Shown here piece after piece: positions 17,438 to 31,029 of a stretch of DNA of 64,000 nt. Source of the DNA: Deltaproteobacteria bacterium (GTDB taxonomy: Bacteria; Myxococcota_A; Polyangia; Polyangiales; Houyiibacteriaceae). The stretch lies in contig SHLP01000005.1 of the NCBI GenBank assembly GCA_004283055.1, positions 4,687 through 68,686 of the forward strand, read 5' to 3'. Under the pieces are notes generated by a model. The model saw nothing but the letters and a program-made list of their open reading frames with translations, had not been told where the DNA came from and searched no databases. The first letter of the stretch is position 1. Every line of letters starts with the position of its first letter. Made by a program: the position numbers and the translations under genes.

Positions 17438-20400
17438 ATGGAGCTCATCCGCAGCAACCGAACGGAAAACCTCGCGGACGCGCTTGCTTCGCTGATTCGC
17501 CGCGAGCCCCTGGGCGCGTTCCAGAACGAAGTCATCGTGGTTTCGAGTCGCGGCATGGAGCGCTGGCTGACGCTCGCGCTCGCCGAGCGGCTAGGGGTTT
17601 GGGGGAATCCTTCGTTTCCGTTCCCGCGAGCCGTGATCGAAGAAGTCCTCGAACGCGCGCTCGGGGCGTCGGAAAAGGCGTCCGCATATTCGCCGGACCG
17701 ACTGAAATGGACGATCGCGCGCCTGCTTGAAGAATCCGCGCCGCAAAAGCTGCGTGTTTACTTGGGTGCCGAACCCGACCCCGACCGCGTGCTGCGCTTC
17801 GCGGACGGCCTCTCCGCGGTGTACGACGACTACGTCGTGTATCGGCCGGAGATGCTGGCCGATTGGGCAAAGAGGCCATCGGCGAGCTGGCAGAGTGAGC
17901 TCTGGCATCGTGTTGCGCAGGCACTCGGGCCGCAGGACCTCGCCTCCCGTATTCGGCAAGCGCTGCCCAGGCTCCGAAGCGACCAGCGCATCGACGATCT
18001 CAGCTTTGAACGGCTTCACGTGTTTGCGCTCGAAACCGTTCCGCCTCTGTTCGTCGAGCTCTTCGATGCGCTCTCGCACTCGGTTCCGACGACGCTCTAT
18101 GTGCTGGAACCCTCGCGCGAATACCTTGGGGACGTGCTGCCCTCTGCGGAAGGACCCGCTTCGAGCGACGGCCATACATTTCTATCGAGCGTCGGACGTC
18201 TGAGCCACGACTTCCAGCAAGTCCTGCTCTCCGTCGACCGGAGCCTGGGCCGCCAGGTGGAGGTCTATGAGGCGCCGAAACGAACGAGCCTGCTGAGCTC
18301 GCTCCAGGCCGACATGTTCGAGTTCAGGAGCACGCCGGCGCCGGCGGATCGGCCTGTCCAGAGCCCTTTGGATTCGTCGATGACCGTCCACGCGTGCGCC
18401 GGCCCGATGCGGGAGGCACAGGTCGTCTATGAAGCCGTTCAGAGCGCTCTCGAGGAGGACTCGACCCTTCTGCCCGAAGACATCCTCGTCATGGCGCCGA
18501 ACCTCGAGGCCTACGCGCCGGTTTTTCGAGCGGTGTTCGGCCAGGAAGGGCGCCACCGCATTCCCTATGAAGTTCACGACCGCCTGACGCGCGAAGACGC
18601 GCGTTTCTACGACGACTTCGTCGCGGTGCTGGAGGTGCTCGGCTCGCGGTTCTCGGTGCTCGACCTGCTGCGGCTGATCGACGCAGACTCGATGCGCGCG
18701 GACTTCCGCTTCAGCCCAGAGGAACGAGCGAGGCTGACGGAGCTCCTCGCAGCGGCCGGCGTCCGCTGGGGCATCGACGCAGCGCACCGCACCGAGCTGG
18801 AGTTCCCCGCCGAGCCCATGCACACCTGGAAGGCGGGTTTTGGCAGGCTGTTCTTGGGATTCGCCTCGTCAACGCAGGACAGCGCTGTCTTCAACGGCCT
18901 GCTCCCGCGGGGGGCGCCATCGCTCGAAGACGCCGCTCTCGTGGCGCGCTTGTCACGGCTGGGCGAGACGCTGTTCGAGGCGCAGCGCCAGGCGCGCGAG
19001 CCGCAGACGATGGGCGACTGGACCGAGCTCCTCGTGCAGCTTTGCAGATCGCTCTTCTCGGAGGACGATGAGTGGAGCCCTGCGGTGCGGGTCATCCGCG
19101 AAGCGCTCGGCAGCTTGAAAGAGTCGGCCGAGCAGAGCGAATACAGCGGCTCCCTGTCGCTCAAAACCATTCGCCGAGAGCTTGCCGGGCTTCTGCAGCG
19201 GGAAACCCCCGCGGTTGGATTCCTGCGACGTGGCGTGACCATCGCCGAGCTCGTACCTCTGCGGCCGGTGCCGTTTCGGCTCGTATGTCTCGTCGGAATG
19301 GACGAAGCTTCATTTCCGCGGGCGGACAGGCGTCTGAGCTTTGACGTGACGCGGGATTCGCCGCGACCAGGCGACCGGAACCAGCGCCACGACGATCGTC
19401 ATGCGTTCCTGCAGGCCATCCTTTGCGCGCGCGACAGGCTCATCGTCACCTATGGAACGCCTTCATCGGGCTCGCGACAGAGCGCTAGCCCCTCGCCACT
19501 GCTGTGGGAGCTTCGCGACGCGGTCAATCGCTACTACCAAGGTCCTGATGGCGCGCCGCTGCTCGAACCAGTCGTGCACCCGCGGCACGCGTTTGATGCT
19601 ACTTATTTCGACGGCAGCGCGACGTTTCAGAGCAGCTCGCGGCGGCATCTGCAAATCGCCGAAGCGCTGCGCCAGCCGCCTGACGAACGCACGCGCGTCG
19701 AGCTCCTGGCCGAGACGGGCGAGCAGGCCCCCGTCGTATCGACGGGCGAGCTCGCCTCTTGGCTTTGGAACCCGATCGCTTCGTTCATCGATCGGGTCCT
19801 GTTGGCGCGATTCGATGAGTCAGAGCTCTACGAGCCGACGATGGCGGTCACGCAGGCCAGCCCGCTCGACAAATCGCTGCTTGGGAATGCCGCCCTTCGA
19901 GCCGGTCTTCGTGACGACGCTCTTCGGGAATTCCTCGAGGCCGCGCCCGAATTCCCGGATGGAACCTGGGGTGCTCTCGAACGGCAAGCCCTCGCGCAGG
20001 AGCTCGCCGACCTCAACTGGCGGGCCGACGAACTACAGACGCATCCGACGGCCGAGTCAGAGCTGCTTTCGGTGGAGCTCGACGGGCTCGTCTTGGAGGG
20101 CCGCGTGGACGGTTTGTTTCCGGAGCAGCGGCTCGTGAAGCGCTTCACGAAGGCCGGGCGCAGAGCGGAGCTGGCGGCCTGGGTCGAGCACCTGCTGTTG
20201 CAGGCGGCCACCGGGACGAGGCGCCGGACGAATCTCGTCCTGCGAGGCGAACGCCAGCGGGCGAGCCTGATCTCATTCGCGCCGCCCGAGGACCCTTGGC
20301 AGCTGCTCGGCACGCTGCTCGAAATCTACGGCGAGTGCGTCGAAAAGCCTGTGCCCCTTCTGGAAAGCGCGTCGCGGCTCTTCGCTCAGCACTACCGTCC

Positions 20401-20587
20401 CGAGGATCGACGCAAGGCCGAGAAATCGGCGAGGACTGAATTGCGAAGCCTGTGCGGCAGAGATGCGCGCCTCGCATATGCCCTGGGGTCGTTCGACGCA
20501 TTTGGGGATGAACGCTGGATGGAGGCCTTCGAGCAAGCGGCGCTCGCGGTCTACAGACCGCTCTTCGAGCATCGGAGCGAGCCATGA
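17438..20587 (+). CDS. recC: exodeoxyribonuclease V gamma subunit
   Basis: MELIRSNRTENLADALASLIR...VIVVSSRGMERWL... is the canonical RecC N-terminus. About 1050 aa. ATGA overlap with recB at 20584-20587. Confidence 0.9.
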   Translation: MELIRSNRTENLADALASLIRREPLGAFQNEVIVVSSRGMERWLTLALAERLGVWGNPSFPFPRAVIEEVLERALGASEKASAYSPDRLKWTIARLLEESAPQKLRVYLGAEPDPDRVLRFADGLSAVYDDYVVYRPEMLADWAKRPSASWQSELWHRVAQALGPQDLASRIRQALPRLRSDQRIDDLSFERLHVFALETVPPLFVELFDALSHSVPTTLYVLEPSREYLGDVLPSAEGPASSDGHTFLSSVGRLSHDFQQVLLSVDRSLGRQVEVYEAPKRTSLLSSLQADMFEFRSTPAPADRPVQSPLDSSMTVHACAGPMREAQVVYEAVQSALEEDSTLLPEDILVMAPNLEAYAPVFRAVFGQEGRHRIPYEVHDRLTREDARFYDDFVAVLEVLGSRFSVLDLLRLIDADSMRADFRFSPEERARLTELLAAAGVRWGIDAAHRTELEFPAEPMHTWKAGFGRLFLGFASSTQDSAVFNGLLPRGAPSLEDAALVARLSRLGETLFEAQRQAREPQTMGDWTELLVQLCRSLFSEDDEWSPAVRVIREALGSLKESAEQSEYSGSLSLKTIRRELAGLLQRETPAVGFLRRGVTIAELVPLRPVPFRLVCLVGMDEASFPRADRRLSFDVTRDSPRPGDRNQRHDDRHAFLQAILCARDRLIVTYGTPSSGSRQSASPSPLLWELRDAVNRYYQGPDGAPLLEPVVHPRHAFDATYFDGSATFQSSSRRHLQIAEALRQPPDERTRVELLAETGEQAPVVSTGELASWLWNPIASFIDRVLLARFDESELYEPTMAVTQASPLDKSLLGNAALRAGLRDDALREFLEAAPEFPDGTWGALERQALAQELADLNWRADELQTHPTAESELLSVELDGLVLEGRVDGLFPEQRLVKRFTKAGRRAELAAWVEHLLLQAATGTRRRTNLVLRGERQRASLISFAPPEDPWQLLGTLLEIYGECVEKPVPLLESASRLFAQHYRPEDRRKAEKSARTELRSLCGRDARLAYALGSFDAFGDERWMEAFEQAALAVYRPLFEHRSEP

Positions 20588-23500
20588 GCGCCATGCATCC
20601 GGAGCTGGTGCCGCTCGATGCGCCGACGCTCGTCGAAGCAAGCGCCGGCACCGGCAAGACCCACGCGATCACGACCTACTTCGTTCGCGGGCTCCTGGAG
20701 CTCGGCTTGCAGCCGGAGCAGATCCTGGTCGTCACCTATACGAACGCGGCGACGGCGGAGCTCCGGATCCGAGCGCGCGACCGAATCGCTCAGGCACTCG
20801 TCATGCTGGACTCGTCCAACGGGCGAGGCGACGCGCTCCGCGAGGTCGTCGACGCCGCAGCCGAACGCCTCGGCCGAAGCGAAGTCGAACGTCGGCTCAG
20901 AAACGCGATCGGCAAGATGGATCAGGCTGCCATCCTGACGATCCACGGCTTCTGTCAGCGGCTCCTGCTGGAGTATCCGCTCGAGCTTGGAATCGACTTC
21001 GACCTCGAAGTTGCCGAGGATGTGGAGTCCGTGCACGCCGAGCTTGCGGTCGATTTCTGGGTGAGCGAGCTCTACGACCAGGGCGAATGGCTGCTCGAAG
21101 CGCTGAAGAAGGCCAAGGTCGGGCCCGAGCACCTGGCAACGCTGGCCAGCGTCGCCTCGATGCGGGCCACCGAGCTCCTTGGTCCGGAACGGCACGATGC
21201 GAACGACAACCTCGTCGCGGACTGGCTGGAGGAACATCGACGGGCCGGGGAGCTCTGGAACCGGGAGCGAGCGCAAGTCTGCGAGATTCTCGTGCGCAAC
21301 CCGGACTTCAACCGAAATCGGTACAATCTCAAGAGCATCCCGAAGACCTGGATGCCCGCGCTGGACGCCTTTTTCGAGCAGCCGCGTTTTGCGTACCCCC
21401 CGGCGTGCCTGCCGCTTCTCGCCGAGGGCAGGATGGCGATGAAGAAAGGCCGGGATGAGCCCGAGCACGCTTTTTTCAGAGCGTGCCGCAGCCTGTTGGA
21501 TGCCCATGAAACACTGCAACCGATGCTCGACTATGCGGTGTTCGACGTGCAGCAGCGGTTCATCGAGCATGCCCGGAGCGTTTCGCGCAAGCGCCGCCAC
21601 GAAACCTCCGTGTTCACGTTCGACGACTTGTTGACAGCCGTCTACGCGGCGTTGGATCCCTCGATGGCCGGTGCCGCGGCGTCGAGCCGGGACGAGCTCA
21701 TCGCGACGATCGCAAGGTCGTATCCTCTGGCGCTCATCGATGAGTTTCAGGACACCGATTCGGTGCAGTATGGGATTTTTCGAGCAATCTACGGCGAGGG
21801 TGCAGCGGTCTACGTCGGCGACCCGAAGCAAGCGATCTACTCGTTTCGCGGAGCGGACGTCTTTTCGTACATGGGTGCCGCGGCGGACGTTGGTCAGCGC
21901 AAGCATGCACTTGGAACCAACTGGCGCTCCGACCCGGCCGTCGTCGAAGGGGTCAACGCCCTGTTCTCCCGCAGAGAGCCTGCGTTCGCGCTCGACGGCA
22001 TCGACTTCGAGCCGGCTGTCGCGCAAGCCGACGGGAACCGTTCGAGCCTCGACGCGGGCTTGGAGCTGATCTTCATCGAAGAAGAGCAGCTCGAGGGTCC
22101 GCTCGCCGAGGCGGTCGCGCCGATTGTCGCCAATGAAATCGCGCTCCTGCTCGATTCCGAGGCTCGGATCAATGGGCGCCCAGTGGTGCCCGACGACGTG
22201 GCCGTGCTGTGCCGCAGCAACACGCAGGCAGAGGAAGTGACGGCCGCTCTGCGGGCCCTGCGGATTCCGACCTCACTCGACGGCGGCTCGACCGTGCTCG
22301 GGACCGAGATCGCTTCGGAGCTTGGAGCCGTCCTCGAGGCGGCCTTGATGCCAGGCGACGCTGGCGCAGTCCGGCGCGCGCTCCTGACGAGGCTGTTCGG
22401 AGTCAGCCCGTACGCGCTCTCTTCGATGAGCGATGAAACCTGGACCAGCTGGGTGACTCGGTTCCGAGAATGGAACGAGACCTGGCACAGCTACGGCGTG
22501 CTTCGCTTCCTCGAAGACATGCTCCGGGTCTCGGAGGCCGAGAAGCGAATCGCGCGTCAGCCGGCAGCGCGACGAGAGCTCACCGACCTTTCGCACATCG
22601 AAGAGCTCCTTCTTCGCGGAGAACGGGAGCAAGGCCGAAACCCCGTCTCTCTGATGCAGTGGCTTCGGCGCGCGAGTAACGGCTCCGCAGCCGGCGGGGT
22701 GGCGCGCGAGGAGCTCCAGCAACGGCCGGACGCCGAGTCGGGCGCGGTTCGTGTCGCGACGATTCACAAGAGCAAAGGCCTCGAGTACGGGATCGTCTAT
22801 TGCCCGTTCACGTGGAACGACGCCGGCCTTCGAGGCTTCGCGGCTAAGGCCCTGAAGTTCCACGACGCAGAGCGCGACATCAAGCTCGACCTTCGCCTCA
22901 CGCTCCCCGATGCTCGGAACAGGTTTGCAAATCAGCCCGAGCTCGCCGAACATCGGAGGCTTGCAGAGCTCGAAGCGCAGTCCGATGCGCTTCGGCTGCT
23001 TTATGTGGCGGTCACACGCGCCAAGCATCGGTGCACGCTTTTTTGGGGGCGTGGTGCGGGTTGGAAGACGTCGGCGCTTCGCTACCTGTTGCACGGGGAC
23101 GACGGGTTCGACGAGCTCGACGAACCGCAAATGCGCCAGGCTGTCGAGGCGCTCGCGGCTGCGTCCTCGGGCACGATCGGCTGCCGTCCGCCTCACGGAG
23201 AGGCGGCGGCCCCGATGCAGCCCGAGGCGCCCAAAGCGAACCTGGCCGCGAAAGCGCAGAGCCGCACTTTCGACCAAGCACCCACAATGGCGAGCTTCAC
23301 GAGCCTGAGCGGCCACGACGAAAAAGCGCCCGTCGAACGAAGCGACGGCGCGCCCACGGAACACGATCGTGCTCTCTTTGGGAACTTGGCGCCGGGAGCG
23401 CGGACGGGCCTGTTGCTCCATTCGATTTTGGAACAGGCGAATTTCGCAGAGCTCGGTGGAGGGGCAACGGAGACCTTGATCGAGCGCGAGCTAGGGGCGT

Positions 23501-29097: not shown

Positions 29098-29613
29098 TCA
29101 TCCGGTCGCCTTTCTCGCTTCGAGCATCATCTCGGCCAACTTCGTGAACACCTGACTGACGCTGTCTCCCGTCTTCGCGCTCGCTTGGACGAGCTGCCAT
29201 TCGAGCTTGCTCGCCGCGTCGATTTGAGCCCTGCTGAGTGCGAAGTCTCCGGTCCGATCGGACTTGTTCACGACGAGGATTGCCGGCCGCGAGCCAATGA
29301 ACCCGCGCTCCTTGGAGTGCGCCTCGAGCAGGTGGTCCAGCGTCTGCGGCTTGGTGGCGTCCACCACGAAGATGAGGCCCGATGCCCCGGAAATGAACGA
29401 GCGGTTGTATTGGCCCCCCGCGTCGACCCCTGCCGGATCCCAGAGCATCATCTCGAGCGTGACGTCGCCCAGCTCGACGGTGCCCGAGAAAATCGACATC
29501 GCGATCGACGAGTTGTGCTCTGGTTCGAAGCGGTCCTCGACGAATCGCTGAACGAGGCTCGATTTCCCAACCCCCGAAGCACCTAAAACACACACTTTCC
29601 GCTTCAGCCGCAC
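29098..29613 (-). CDS. Ras-superfamily small GTPase
   Basis: G1 GASGVGKS, G3 WDPAG, G4 NKSD, G5 SAK. 171 aa. GTG start at 29613. Confidence 0.8.
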   Translation of the reverse strand: MRLKRKVCVLGASGVGKSSLVQRFVEDRFEPEHNSSIAMSIFSGTVELGDVTLEMMLWDPAGVDAGGQYNRSFISGASGLIFVVDATKPQTLDHLLEAHSKERGFIGSRPAILVVNKSDRTGDFALSRAQIDAASKLEWQLVQASAKTGDSVSQVFTKLAEMMLEARKATG

Positions 29614-29700
29614 AGCTCTTTAGTACGCCAAGTCCGGTGCGCCGCAAAGCCCCGCGCAGGGGGTGGCGGCCACATACCTTCTTGTCCTAGAGTCCCGCCG

Positions 29701-30966
29701 ATGAGCGAGCACAAAGAGAAGCTGGAGTTCGGCGGGGTCCCTGGGAACTTCGCCATGATTTTCGGCCTCCCCGTTTTCACGGCGTATCTCTTCTTCGCGG
29801 TGCGTTTCAACGACGGCGCCGTGCTTCCGGGGCCCAACGCCGACTGGGAGGGTTTCAGGCAGGCCATGATGCCGACGGGACGGGCGGCGATCATCTACGG
29901 TCTGTGGTTCGCGCTTCAGGCTCTCCTGCAACGGTACGCGCCCGGTCGGGAGGTCCTCGGCGCCGAGCTGCCCGACGGCAGCCGACTGCCTTATCGAATG
30001 AACGGACTGTTCTCGCTCCTCGTGAGCTTCATCGTAGTGGCTACTGCGCACTGGTCCGGTCTGTTCTCGATTCGCGAGCTCTACGACCAGTTCGGCGCGC
30101 TGATCAGCGTGATGACGATCTTCGTGTTCTTCTTCAGCGCCTATCTCTACTGGTATGGCAAGCAGCACGGGCAAGCGCGGCACCTCAGCGGCAAGCTCAT
30201 CCACGATTTTTGGATGGGGACGGGCCACAACCCGCGCATTCCAGCGGGCCGCGATGGCCTGGATCTGAAAATATTTTGCGAAGCGCGGCCGGGGCTCATC
30301 TTGTGGGTGCTGATCAACACCTCGTTCGCCTACGTTCAGTACGAAAAGTACGGCTTCGTATCGACGTCGATGATCCTCGTTTGGCTCTTCCAAATGTTTT
30401 ACATCGTCGACTACTTCTGGAACGAAGAGGCCATCCTCACCACGATGGACATCAAGCACGAGAACTTCGGCTACATGCTGGCGTTCGGCGACTTGGTCTG
30501 GGTGCCGATGACCTACTCCCTGCAAGCGCACTACCTCATCGACCGCGTGCACTCCTTGCCCTGGTGGGGAGCGCTCCTGATCGTCGCCGTCAACATGCTC
30601 GGCCTTTACATCTTCCGCGTCGTGAATCTGCAGAAGCACAAGTTCCGAAAAGACCCGGACAACGCCCGCATTTGGGGCAAGAAGGTCGAGTACCTTCAAA
30701 CCGAGCAGGGCGGTAAGCTCCTGCTGTCGGGATTTTGGGGTTGGTCCCGTCACTTCAACTACGTCGGGGACATATTGATGGCGCTGTCCTGGTCCCTCCC
30801 CTGCCTGTTCGGGTCGGCCCTCCCCTATTTCTACCCAATCTACTTCGCGATCCTGCTGATCCACCGCGAGCGCCGAGACCACAAGTTCTGCTCGAAGAAG
30901 TACGGCGAAGACTGGAAGCGGTACTGCGAACGAGTTCGCTGGCGAATCATCCCCGGCGTCTACTAA
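29701..30966 (+). CDS. delta(14)-sterol reductase-like protein (ERG4/ERG24 / TM7SF2 family)
   Basis: A polytopic membrane protein. From memory it aligns over its whole length with eukaryotic C-14 sterol reductases: LEFGG near the N-terminus, FCEARPGLILWVLIN, EEAILTTMDIKHENFGYMLAFGDLVWVPMTYSLQA, KLLLSGFWGWSRHFNYVGDILMALSWSLPC, and C-terminal LLIHRERRDHKFCSKKYGEDWKRYCERVRWRIIPGVY. Confidence 0.85.
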   Translation: MSEHKEKLEFGGVPGNFAMIFGLPVFTAYLFFAVRFNDGAVLPGPNADWEGFRQAMMPTGRAAIIYGLWFALQALLQRYAPGREVLGAELPDGSRLPYRMNGLFSLLVSFIVVATAHWSGLFSIRELYDQFGALISVMTIFVFFFSAYLYWYGKQHGQARHLSGKLIHDFWMGTGHNPRIPAGRDGLDLKIFCEARPGLILWVLINTSFAYVQYEKYGFVSTSMILVWLFQMFYIVDYFWNEEAILTTMDIKHENFGYMLAFGDLVWVPMTYSLQAHYLIDRVHSLPWWGALLIVAVNMLGLYIFRVVNLQKHKFRKDPDNARIWGKKVEYLQTEQGGKLLLSGFWGWSRHFNYVGDILMALSWSLPCLFGSALPYFYPIYFAILLIHRERRDHKFCSKKYGEDWKRYCERVRWRIIPGVY

Positions 30967-30973
30967 CCCGCCT

Positions 30974-30996
30974 AAAAAGGGGACAGTCCCCTTTTT
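30974..30996 (+). terminator. rho-independent terminator hairpin (perfect 11-nt arms, T-run)
   Basis: aaaaaggggac-a-gtccccttttt, 8 nt after the sterol reductase stop. The arms are exact reverse complements and the 3' arm ends in TTTTT. Confidence 0.6.
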
Positions 30997-31029
30997 CGAG
31001 AGGTTGATGCGCAGTAGGCTTGGACGGTC

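What the first reader, a model, noticed from the sequence alone, without database searches (positions are those of the whole stretch)
29701..30966. Eukaryote-type delta(14)-sterol reductase (ERG24/TM7SF2-like) as a solitary gene
From memory, the 421-aa product aligns block for block with human TM7SF2, the LBR C-terminal domain and yeast ERG24. The shared blocks are LEFGG, FCE.RPGLI.WVLIN, EEA.LTTMDI.H..FG.MLAFGD..WVP.TYSLQA, KLL.SG.WG..RH.NY.GD..MAL.WSLPC and the C-terminal HRE.RD...C..KYG..W..YC..V.YRI.P..Y. Sterol synthesis is rare in bacteria but is known in some Myxococcota and methanotrophs, and a methanotroph homologue served as the structural model for this enzyme family. No other sterol gene (squalene epoxidase, oxidosqualene cyclase, CYP51, C-4 demethylation) is in the window. 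The gene is divergently paired with a Ras-like GTPase and is followed by a perfect hairpin terminator.
Basis: partly seen in the sequence, partly recalled or inferred. Interest (0 to 1): 0.6.

Follow-up and report, generated by a model that had tools for sequence, protein, structure and literature searches.

The report
Sterol C-14 reductase without a cyclase
This is a real sterol C-14 reductase gene in an uncultured sediment myxobacterium, and it belongs to a scattered set of sterol-tailoring genes that the whole genus keeps under strong selection even in species, like this one, that lack the genes for making the sterol skeleton.

Summary
Window 29701-30966(+) encodes a 421-aa full-length ERG4/ERG24 protein (Pfam E 6.7e-126). 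It is 50% identical to MaSR1 (PDB 4QUV), and both NADPH-pocket residues checked are conserved. On a tree it sits with MaSR1, apart from DHCR7 and ERG4, so C-14 specificity is the best reading.

It is solitary only within the window. Elsewhere the genome holds CYP51 overlapping a cycloeucalenol-cycloisomerase-like gene, a sterol methyltransferase, two EXPERA/EBP proteins and an ERG4-type paralogue.

It has no squalene epoxidase or oxidosqualene cyclase. This is not an assembly gap. In a close relative these genes lie on a 14.3-kb island, and our contig C190 joins that island's two flanks directly.

Across the genus:
- CYP51 is in 37/37 genomes.
- ERG4/ERG24 is in 36/37.
- The cyclase is in 14/37, with at least 6 gains or losses on a 20-species tree.
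- The window gene is intact in all 20 genomes sampled, with dN/dS about 0.07 in cyclase-less lineages.

Most likely it is a working C-14 reductase in a cyclase-independent toolkit that acts on imported sterol precursors. A steroid-catabolism-like cluster fits that reading. The enzyme is a known kind; the genomic pattern is the interesting part.

The parts
29701..30966 (+). Sterol C-14 reductase gene (421 aa, ERG4/ERG24 family, MaSR1-type clade)
   Evidence: ORF. PF01222, E 6.7e-126, full length; 4QUV, E 1.9e-128; tree places it with MaSR1. N353 and R389 match the MaSR1 NADPH-pocket residues N359 and R395; intact in 20 of 20 genomes of the genus, dN/dS 0.05-0.1.
29614..29700 (.). 87-nt divergent intergenic region between the Ras-like GTPase and the reductase; presumed promoter region (inferred)
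   Evidence: sequence; no sigma-70 consensus found. The promoter is inferred from the gene arrangement only.
29098..29613 (-). Ras-family small GTPase (171 aa), divergent neighbour; no functional link to the reductase is shown
   Evidence: PF00071, E 4.8e-24; adjacency kept in most genus loci, but the protein is only 56-87% identical and is missing in several loci where the reductase remains.
30974..30996 (+). Perfect 10-bp hairpin (AAAAAGGGGA / CAG loop / UCCCCUUUUU) 8 nt after the stop; intrinsic-terminator-like, could act in both directions
   Evidence: sequence; the 46-nt stretch 30960-31005 around it folds at -15.5 kcal/mol, z -2.28. The consensus scan did not list it, because the T-run is part of the stem.

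Best explanation
The gene encodes an NADPH-dependent integral-membrane sterol delta-14 reductase. It reduces the C14=C15 double bond of the delta-8,14-diene that CYP51 leaves behind after removing the 14-alpha-methyl group.

It is one member of a chromosomally dispersed, vertically inherited post-cyclisation toolkit:
- a sterol C-24 methyltransferase;
- a cycloeucalenol-cycloisomerase-like protein whose gene overlaps the CYP51 stop codon by 4 nt;
- CYP51;
- this reductase;
- two EXPERA/EBP-type candidate C-8 isomerases;
- an ERG4-type C-24(28) reductase.

The makers of the sterol skeleton are squalene epoxidase and oxidosqualene cyclase. In this genus they lie on a 14.3-kb accessory island with a second mevalonate gene set and a second CYP51. 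That island is absent from this genome. The toolkit here therefore most likely works on sterol precursors taken up from outside. Sources could be island-bearing relatives or eukaryotic (algal or plant) material, supplying cyclopropyl- or 14-methyl-sterols.

Shown: family membership, conserved cofactor residues, clade, gene inventory, the empty site, the distribution across the genus and purifying selection. Inferred: the exact substrate, sterol uptake, and what the products are used for.
For: Enzyme identity:
- PF01222 full length.
- 50% identity and E 1.9e-128 to 4QUV.
- N353 and R389 correspond to MaSR1 N359 and R395 in the NADPH pocket, the LBR Greenberg-dysplasia sites (alignment; PMC4951196).
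- Same clade as MaSR1; separated from DHCR7 at 100/99 and from ERG4 at 100/100.

Partner enzymes in the own genome:
- CYP51 at C242:2319-3698, E 5e-138 to the methanotroph CYP51 structures.
- The 269-aa gene overlapping its stop codon has close homologues that JGI names cycloeucalenol cycloisomerase. It follows the core CYP51 in 5 of 5 relatives.
- SMT, Sterol_MT_C 75.8 bits; two EXPERA proteins.
- The paralogue on C140 groups with yeast ERG4 and is 40% identical to it.

No cyclase:
- PF13243, PF13249 and PF08491 are negative. The one weak PF13249 hit is a Ser/Thr kinase.
- tblastn with same-genus OSCs finds nothing below E of about 1.
- Own contig C190 joins the two flanks of the G005 island within one contig.

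Genus pattern:
- CYP51 in 37/37 genomes.
- ERG4/ERG24 in 36/37.
- OSC in 14/37. It is absent from 7 of the 10 assemblies with 30 contigs or fewer.
- At least 6 changes of OSC state on a 20-taxon tree.

Selection and inheritance:
- Intact in 20 of 20 genomes. Median dN/dS is 0.069 among cyclase-less pairs and 0.105 among cyclase-bearing pairs.
- Synteny is conserved, and the gene is more conserved than its neighbours.

Exogenous steroids are plausible:
- The C82 cluster holds a FadD3 equivalog and Ltp3-, Ltp4- and PRK07798-type subfamily hits above cut-off, plus HsaA-like, KstR-like, CasG-like and HsaF/HsaG-type genes.

Precedents:
- Mycobacteria carry Cyp51 plus a reductase without a cyclase (PMC13277303).
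- Coxiella has orphan sterol reductases (PMC8787468).
Against: - There is no biochemical or lipid data.
- No sterol importer has been identified.
- Sterols that still carry the 14-alpha-methyl group or the cyclopropane ring are pathway intermediates and are usually minor in cells, so supply is uncertain.
- No convincing C-4 demethylase was found. SdmA is absent and the FA_hydroxylase hits are not diagnostic. The canonical CPI substrate needs one C-4 demethylation first.
- The genome is a 293-contig MAG.
- Some 'cyclase-less' calls in fragmented relatives may be false negatives.
- My tree has no plant FACKEL sequence, and the node joining the window clade to MaSR1 has only 88/87 support.
- The CPI assignment rests on automated JGI names and on the literature, not on a direct comparison with a verified plant sequence.
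Confidence: 0.55

Rival explanations
1. Same enzyme, but in ordinary de novo sterol synthesis. The organism does have a cyclase that was missed, because island-bearing and island-free strains were co-assembled, or the island was not binned, or a non-homologous cyclase or epoxidase does the job.
For: The closest relatives by CYP51 and by reductase identity (G005, G024, G017, G004, G036) carry the island. The assembly has 293 contigs, and there is a contig break about 700 nt from the junction. A toolkit this complete looks like a biosynthetic pathway. Alternative squalene epoxidases are known in some eukaryotes (my own knowledge).
Against: The two flanks are joined inside one contig. No trace of OSC, SE or HMGS from the island is found anywhere in the bin. 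The same cyclase-less state occurs in assemblies of 4 to 10 contigs that are 97-100% complete: G008, G015, G027 and G032. No second cyclase family gave a signal.
Confidence: 0.15
2. The toolkit is a catabolic funnel, not a membrane-sterol pathway. CPI, CYP51, the C-14 reductase and the C-24(28) reductase strip the cyclopropane ring, the 14-methyl group and unusual double bonds from plant and algal triterpenoid sterols, so that the steroid-degradation cluster can use them as carbon.
For: There is a steroid-catabolism-like cluster on C82: a FadD3 equivalog and Ltp3/Ltp4-type hits above cut-off, plus HsaA-like, KstR-like, CasG-like and HsaF/HsaG-type genes. A Mycobacterium fed lanosterol makes a demethylated C19 steroid, and its Cyp51 with 8,14-Bsr is read that way (PMC13277303).
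Against: The toolkit genes are not linked to the catabolic cluster. An SMT adds a carbon, which makes little sense in catabolism. Key ring-opening genes (a true KshA, KstD, HsaC, HsaD) were not identified here. HsaA, KstR and CasG are below their curated cut-offs. I did not test whether the catabolic cluster occurs across the genus.
Confidence: 0.15
3. The protein is a sterol reductase of another regiospecificity (for example delta-7, delta-8(14) or delta-24), or it acts on a non-sterol polyprenoid. The C-14 label is carried over from MaSR1 by homology only.
For: Identity to MaSR1 is only 50%. The window clade is not resolved with eukaryotic ERG24/TM7SF2. Coxiella Stmp1 shows that bacterial family members can have broad or unclear specificity (PMC8787468). 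NCBI and JGI label many orthologues merely DUF1295 or ICMT-like.
Against: The protein is clearly outside the DHCR7 and ERG4 clades. The genome already has a separate ERG4-type paralogue. It co-occurs with CYP51, whose product needs exactly this step, in 36 of 37 genomes of the genus. The ICMT model scores 23.8 bits against a cut-off of 160. The genome has no hopanoid or other cyclase product to act on.
Confidence: 0.1
4. It is a decaying relic of a lost sterol pathway with no present function.
For: The cyclase island is absent.
Against: The gene is intact in all 20 genomes sampled. dN/dS is 0.05-0.07, no higher in cyclase-less lineages than in cyclase-bearing ones. It is more conserved than the flanking genes.
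Confidence: 0.02

Closest known systems
MaSR1, delta(14)-sterol reductase of Methylotuvimicrobium (Methylomicrobium) alcaliphilum, PDB 4QUV
   Same: Same Pfam family, collinear over the full length, 50% identity, same tree clade, and the NADPH-pocket N and R conserved. Both are bacterial.
   Different: MaSR1's host makes sterols de novo with its own cyclase (PMC13277303). This genome lacks the cyclase. The window protein has a 4-residue insertion after the NPRI motif.
Eukaryotic C-14 reductases TM7SF2, LBR C-terminal domain, yeast ERG24
   Same: Same family, 37-46% identity. Same predicted reaction after CYP51.
   Different: They form a separate clade (100/99) whose relation to the window clade is unresolved. 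They are ER or nuclear-envelope enzymes of complete pathways. According to PMC2817430, myxobacterial homologues are of the plant FACKEL type, not the ERG24 type (not tested here).
Sterol pathways of cultured Myxococcota (Enhygromyxa salina, Sandaracinus amylolyticus, Minicystis rosea, Plesiocystis pacifica)
   Same: Same phylum. Eukaryote-like downstream enzymes, including C-14 demethylase and reductases. P. pacifica also has CPI1 and FK homologues (PMC10202945; 10.1101/2024.11.01.621555; PMC2817430).
   Different: Those organisms have Osc and make sterols de novo. Here the downstream toolkit is core while SE and OSC are a variable island that this genome lacks. The gene set looks like the plant-type cycloartenol route rather than the cholesterol route.
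Mycobacterial Cyp51 with the 8,14-sterol reductase 8,14-Bsr
   Same: A C-14 demethylase and a reductase for its diene product are kept in bacteria that have no cyclase, which the authors read as modification of exogenous lanosterol (PMC13277303).
   Different: 8,14-Bsr is a soluble NTF2-fold protein unrelated to ERG4/ERG24, and it yields an 8(14)-sterol. The mycobacterial pair is co-localised, whereas here the reductase is far from CYP51.
Coxiella burnetii orphan sterol reductases CBU1206 (Stmp1) and CBU1158
   Same: ERG4/ERG24-family enzymes in a bacterium without the rest of the pathway, acting on sterols made by another organism (PMC8787468).
   Different: Coxiella is an obligate intracellular pathogen with two orphan reductases (delta-24 and delta-7 types), thought to have been acquired from amoebae. 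Here a free-living sediment myxobacterium has a six- to seven-gene toolkit that is vertically inherited within its genus.

Membership tests
ERG4/ERG24 sterol reductase family (Pfam PF01222) | Full-length match to the family profile above the curated cut-off | tested here: met
   421 bits against a cut-off of 27; residues 6-421 on profile positions 3-432 of 432.
ERG4/ERG24 sterol reductase family (Pfam PF01222) | NADPH-pocket residues equivalent to MaSR1 N359 and R395 (LBR N547 and R583) | tested here: met
   N353 in RHFNYVGD and R389 in IHRERRD align to them (alignment; residue roles from PMC4951196).
ERG4/ERG24 sterol reductase family (Pfam PF01222) | Polytopic membrane protein (ten TM helices in MaSR1) | tested here: inconclusive
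   A crude Kyte-Doolittle scan gives about six strong hydrophobic segments plus weaker ones. Topology is inferred only from the near-gapless alignment (one 4-residue insertion) to 4QUV. No structure was predicted.
C-14 sterol reductase subgroup (EC 1.3.1.70) | Groups with a characterised C-14 reductase and not with DHCR7 or ERG4 | tested here: met
   Same clade as MaSR1 (88/87). Split from DHCR7 at 100/99. The ERG4 clade has 100/100 support and contains the other paralogue instead. Monophyly with ERG24/TM7SF2 is unresolved, and plant FK is not in the tree.
C-14 sterol reductase subgroup (EC 1.3.1.70) | The genome encodes CYP51, which makes the delta-8,14-diene substrate | tested here: met
   CYP51 at C242:2319-3698, E 5e-138 to 7JJ1/6MCW. 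The two co-occur in 36 of 37 genomes of the genus.
C-14 sterol reductase subgroup (EC 1.3.1.70) | NADPH-dependent reduction of the C14=C15 bond of a delta-8,14 sterol | not testable with these tools
   Needs a heterologous or in vitro assay.
De novo bacterial sterol biosynthesis pathway | Oxidosqualene cyclase and squalene epoxidase present in the genome | tested here: not met
   PF13243, PF13249 and PF08491 negative. tblastn with same-genus OSCs negative. Intact empty site on C190.
Isoprenylcysteine carboxyl methyltransferase / DUF1295 (the names some sources give orthologues) | Score above the curated cut-off of the ICMT equivalog model | tested here: not met
   NF040696 scores 23.8 bits against a cut-off of 160. 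PF06966 (DUF1295) scores 26.6 bits on residues 262-365 only, beneath the 421-bit PF01222 match.

The most novel reading that the evidence does not exclude
In this genus of free-living sediment Polyangiales, the ability to make the sterol skeleton sits on a small accessory island that is often gained or lost. The island carries a second mevalonate set, squalene epoxidase, oxidosqualene cyclase and a second CYP51. A plant-type tailoring toolkit is core instead: SMT, cyclopropyl-sterol isomerase, CYP51, C-14 reductase, EBP-like proteins and a C-24(28) reductase. Cyclase-less species would then be sterol-skeleton auxotrophs. They would salvage and finish cyclopropyl- or 14-methyl-sterol intermediates released by island-bearing relatives or by algae and plants. 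That would be a community-level division of sterol synthesis in bacteria.
Probability: 0.35. Interest if true: 0.7.

Novelty: new member of a known kind. Interest (0 to 1): 0.45.

Why it matters
Bacterial sterol synthesis bears on two things: how sterane biomarkers in rocks are read, and the debate on whether eukaryotes obtained sterol genes from myxobacteria-like ancestors.

This case shows that downstream sterol genes (CYP51, ERG24-type and ERG4-type reductases, SMT, CPI) can be conserved core genes in bacteria that cannot cyclise squalene epoxide. Counting such genes in metagenomes therefore overestimates the number of sterol producers.

It also points to sterol salvage or cross-feeding in free-living bacteria. 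So far that has mainly been discussed for host-associated sterol auxotrophs (Coxiella) and sterol degraders (mycobacteria).

The 14.3-kb island, with a defined empty site, is a natural presence/absence experiment for testing what bacterial sterols are for.

Tried and rejected
- The weak PF13249 hit on C123 might have been a divergent cyclase. It is a Ser/Thr kinase with helical repeats.
- I first suspected an assembly gap when G005's left flank mapped to the very start of C102. I rejected this once C190 was seen to span the junction.
- The 2026 paper on an 8(14)-sterol reductase looked directly relevant, but it concerns an unrelated NTF2-fold enzyme. I used it only for context and precedent.
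- My recalled Arabidopsis CPI1 (two versions) and FACKEL were not exact database sequences, so I did not use them. The FK-type affiliation and a direct CPI comparison remain untested.
- The recalled ERG24, TM7SF2, DHCR7 and ERG4 sequences were exact and were used.
- One family search was wasted on a truncated sequence.
- The hydropathy count of TM segments was inconclusive.
- FA_hydroxylase (PF04116) is too widespread in the order to identify ERG3- or ERG25-like steps.
- SdmA is absent from this genome and below cut-off wherever it occurs in the genus.
- I did not predict a structure, because 50% identity to a crystal structure made it unnecessary.
Full report
**1. The observation**

Window 29701-30966 (+) is an ATG-started ORF of 421 aa. 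It matches Pfam PF01222 (ERG4_ERG24) over its whole length, with E 6.7e-126 and residues 6-421 on profile positions 3-432 of 432. Its best solved-structure relative is 4QUV, the delta(14)-sterol reductase MaSR1 of a methanotroph (E 1.9e-128).

I recalled human TM7SF2, yeast ERG24, human DHCR7 and yeast ERG4 from memory. An exact look-up showed that all four are letter-perfect database sequences carrying those names. I therefore used them as references.

The fifth differs by one residue. Identities are 50% to MaSR1, 46% to TM7SF2, 44% to LBR, 37% to ERG24, 36-39% to DHCR7 and 30% to ERG4.

The divergent neighbour at 29098-29613 is a Ras-family GTPase. A perfect 10-bp hairpin sits at 30974-30996, 8 nt after the stop. 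The 46-nt stretch around it folds at -15.5 kcal/mol with z -2.3.

**2. Organism and inheritance**

Orthologues at 80-96% amino-acid identity occur in dozens of MAGs labelled Myxococcales, Polyangiales or Sandaracinaceae, among them 'Myxococcales bacterium SG8_38'. The arrangement M48 peptidase, LemA, Ras-like GTPase, reductase, FdhD and molybdoenzyme is kept across the genus. The reductase is more conserved than its neighbours. It is a vertically inherited core gene, not a recent import.

**3. Specificity**

I built a maximum-likelihood tree of 55 family members.
- DHCR7, including the chlamydial Waddlia enzyme, forms one clade (100/99).
- Yeast ERG4 forms another (100/100). That clade also contains this genome's second paralogue (C140:22664-24070, 468 aa, 40% identical to ERG4).
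- Animal and fungal C-14 reductases form a third clade (100/99).
- The window protein lies in a bacterial clade together with MaSR1 (88/87).

The branching order of the ERG4, ERG24/TM7SF2 and MaSR1-type clades is open. Desmond and Gribaldo report two paralogous kinds of C-14 reductase, ERG24/TM7SF2 and plant FACKEL, and place the myxobacterial homologues with FACKEL (PMC2817430). I could not test that, because my recalled FACKEL was not an exact sequence.

The NADPH-pocket residues N359 and R395 of MaSR1, equivalent to the LBR disease sites N547 and R583 (PMC4951196), are N353 and R389 here. C-14 reduction is therefore the best-supported reaction. This rests on homology, not on an assay.

**4. 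The rest of the genome**

The genome is 4.31 Mb in 293 contigs, estimated 100% complete.

Present:
- CYP51 at C242:2319-3698, E 5e-138 to the Methylococcus CYP51 structures.
- A 269-aa membrane protein whose gene overlaps the CYP51 stop by 4 nt. It has no Pfam family. JGI names about two dozen of its 69-94% identical homologues cycloeucalenol cycloisomerase. It follows the core CYP51 in five of five relatives.
- A sterol C-24 methyltransferase at C257:1381-2448 (Sterol_MT_C, 75.8 bits).
- Two small EXPERA/EBP-superfamily proteins on C107 and C207.
- The ERG4-type paralogue on C140.

Absent or unresolved:
- SdmA, the bacterial C-4 methyl oxidase, is absent.
- The seven FA_hydroxylase hits are not diagnostic.

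Taken together, this looks like the middle and late part of a plant-type cycloartenol route.

**5. The cyclase**

- The cyclase domains and squalene epoxidase give no hit. The one weak hit is a protein kinase.
- Cyclases found in relatives carry the oxidosqualene-cyclase motif SDCTAE rather than the hopene-cyclase motif DxDDTA. Motif meanings are from my own knowledge.
- tblastn with those cyclases finds nothing in our genome.
- In G003 and G005 the OSC is clustered with squalene epoxidase, HMG-CoA synthase and reductase, and mevalonate kinases and decarboxylase. In G005 there is also a second CYP51.
- In G005 (20 contigs) this island spans about C16:67251-81603.
- Our contig C190 aligns at 19505-20552 to G005's right flank and at 20528-21248 directly to its left flank. 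C102 continues 58 nt further on.

So the flanks are joined within a single contig. This is an empty site, not a gap. In G005 an imperfect 17-nt direct repeat brackets the island.

**6. The genus**

Counting the 36 relatives of the same genus plus our genome:

| Feature | Genomes with it |
|---|---|
| CYP51 | 37 of 37 |
| ERG4/ERG24 | 36 of 37 |
| EXPERA/EBP | 36 of 37 |
| SMT | 27 of 37 |
| OSC | 14 of 37 |

- Among the ten assemblies with 30 contigs or fewer, seven lack the OSC. These include G008 (4 contigs), G027 (5), G015 (6) and G032 (10).
- On a tree of the reductase gene from 20 species, OSC presence needs at least six changes. That is no more clustered than shuffled labels.
- The reductase ORF is intact in all 20 genomes.
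- Nei-Gojobori dN/dS has a median of 0.069 among cyclase-less pairs and 0.105 among cyclase-bearing pairs. It is 0.052 between our genome and G005.

The gene is therefore kept functional without a resident cyclase.

**7. Where substrates may come from**

Following two earlier unchecked notes, I located a cluster on C82.

Above the curated cut-off:
- a FadD3 acyl-CoA ligase (equivalog);
- Ltp3- and Ltp4-type thiolases (subfamily models);
- a PRK07798 acyl-CoA synthetase (subfamily model);
- two further thiolases;
- HsaF- and HsaG-type enzymes.

Below the cut-off:
- an HsaA-like oxygenase (408 bits against 450);
- a CasG-like steroid-24-oyl-CoA synthetase;
- a KstR-like regulator;
- a Rieske oxygenase.

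This suggests that the organism takes up and degrades steroids. It makes uptake of exogenous sterols plausible. It also raises the rival reading that the toolkit feeds catabolism.

**8. Comparison with what is known**

ERG4/ERG24-type C-14 reductases in bacteria are known, in Methylotuvimicrobium and in Myxococcota (PMC13277303; PMC10202945; 10.1101/2024.11.01.621555; PMC2817430). The enzyme is thus a new member of a known kind.

Sterol-modifying enzymes without a cyclase are known in mycobacteria (Cyp51 with 8,14-Bsr) and in Coxiella (orphan reductases; PMC8787468). The 2024 preprint on Myxococcota remarks on Cyp51 in MAGs of groups with no other sterol genes.

What I did not find described is a whole tailoring toolkit that is core to a free-living genus while the skeleton-making genes sit on a small, frequently gained or lost island.

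**9. Verdict**

The family and the likely specificity are right. 'Solitary' holds only for the window. The cyclase criterion fails, but that does not undermine sterol function.
- Best explanation (0.55): a working C-14 reductase in a cyclase-independent toolkit that acts on imported sterol precursors.
- Main rivals: a missed cyclase (0.15), a catabolic funnel (0.15), another specificity or substrate (0.10).

**Limits**

The tree has no verified plant FK or CPI comparison. The genome is a MAG.

Noticed in passing
Own genome contig C82, about 13-53 kb (L103 = C82:33001-53000, L104 = C82:13001-33000); outside the window: A steroid-catabolism-like cluster. Above curated cut-off: FadD3 acyl-CoA ligase (equivalog), Ltp3- and Ltp4-type thiolases and a PRK07798 synthetase (subfamily models), two further thiolases, and HsaF/HsaG-type enzymes. 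Below cut-off: an HsaA-like oxygenase (408 bits against 450), a CasG-like steroid-24-oyl-CoA synthetase, a KstR-like TetR and a Rieske oxygenase. Steroid degradation is not a trait usually credited to Myxococcota.
   Followed up: partly
G005:C16:67251-81603 (L107/L108); empty site at own C190:20528-20552: A 14.3-kb sterol-skeleton island carrying HMG-CoA synthase, squalene epoxidase, HMG-CoA reductase, OSC, mevalonate kinases and decarboxylase, and a second CYP51. It is bracketed by an imperfect direct repeat of about 17 nt (GCCGGGCGTTCYCGCT). In our genome two convergent genes abut at the site instead.
   Followed up: yes
G004:C45, G005:C16, G024:C9, G031:C94: Island-bearing species have two CYP51 copies. 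The core copy is followed by the CPI-like gene. The island copy, next to the OSC, is 80-85% identical to ours and has no CPI-like partner.
   Followed up: partly
L014 (G003) and L017 (G014) OSC, motif GH(R/G)WPVSDCTAE: The genus OSCs combine a His four residues before a Val that lies two residues ahead of the catalytic Asp. As I recall the diagnostic positions, His is typical of cycloartenol synthases and Val of lanosterol synthases, so the product may be mixed or unusual. The core CPI-like gene suggests that cyclopropyl sterols occur.
   Followed up: no
Own genome C257:1381-2448(-), C107:1911-2456(-), C207:86685-87386(+), C140:22664-24070(-): Further sterol-toolkit genes are scattered singly over the genome: a sterol C-24 methyltransferase, two EXPERA/EBP-superfamily proteins and an ERG4-type C-24(28) reductase. 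Within the order these families are almost confined to this genus. SMT and EBP each occur in 3 of 25 genera.
   Followed up: partly
L063 (CAXMND010000022.1) and L083/L090 (JACKEO/JACKEP records): A MAG labelled 'uncultured Coxiellaceae bacterium' carries an 83%-identical orthologue with most of the myxobacterial synteny (LemA, the Ras-like GTPase, FdhD and the molybdoenzyme; the M48 peptidase was not matched). MAGs named HK-STAS-MYXO-36 and -37 are labelled Alphaproteobacteria. These taxonomic labels look wrong.
   Followed up: no
G027, G032, G024, G023: Some species of the genus have four or five ERG4/ERG24 hits, including a third type (about 235-240 bits, profile positions 64-432) that our genome lacks. 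It may be a further reductase specificity, for example DHCR7-like.
   Followed up: no
Window protein, within residues 177-190 (NPRIPAGRDGLDLK): There is a four-residue insertion relative to MaSR1 (NPRIG----SLDLK) just after the conserved NPR motif. I did not check whether it is conserved in the genus or affects the substrate pocket.
   Followed up: no
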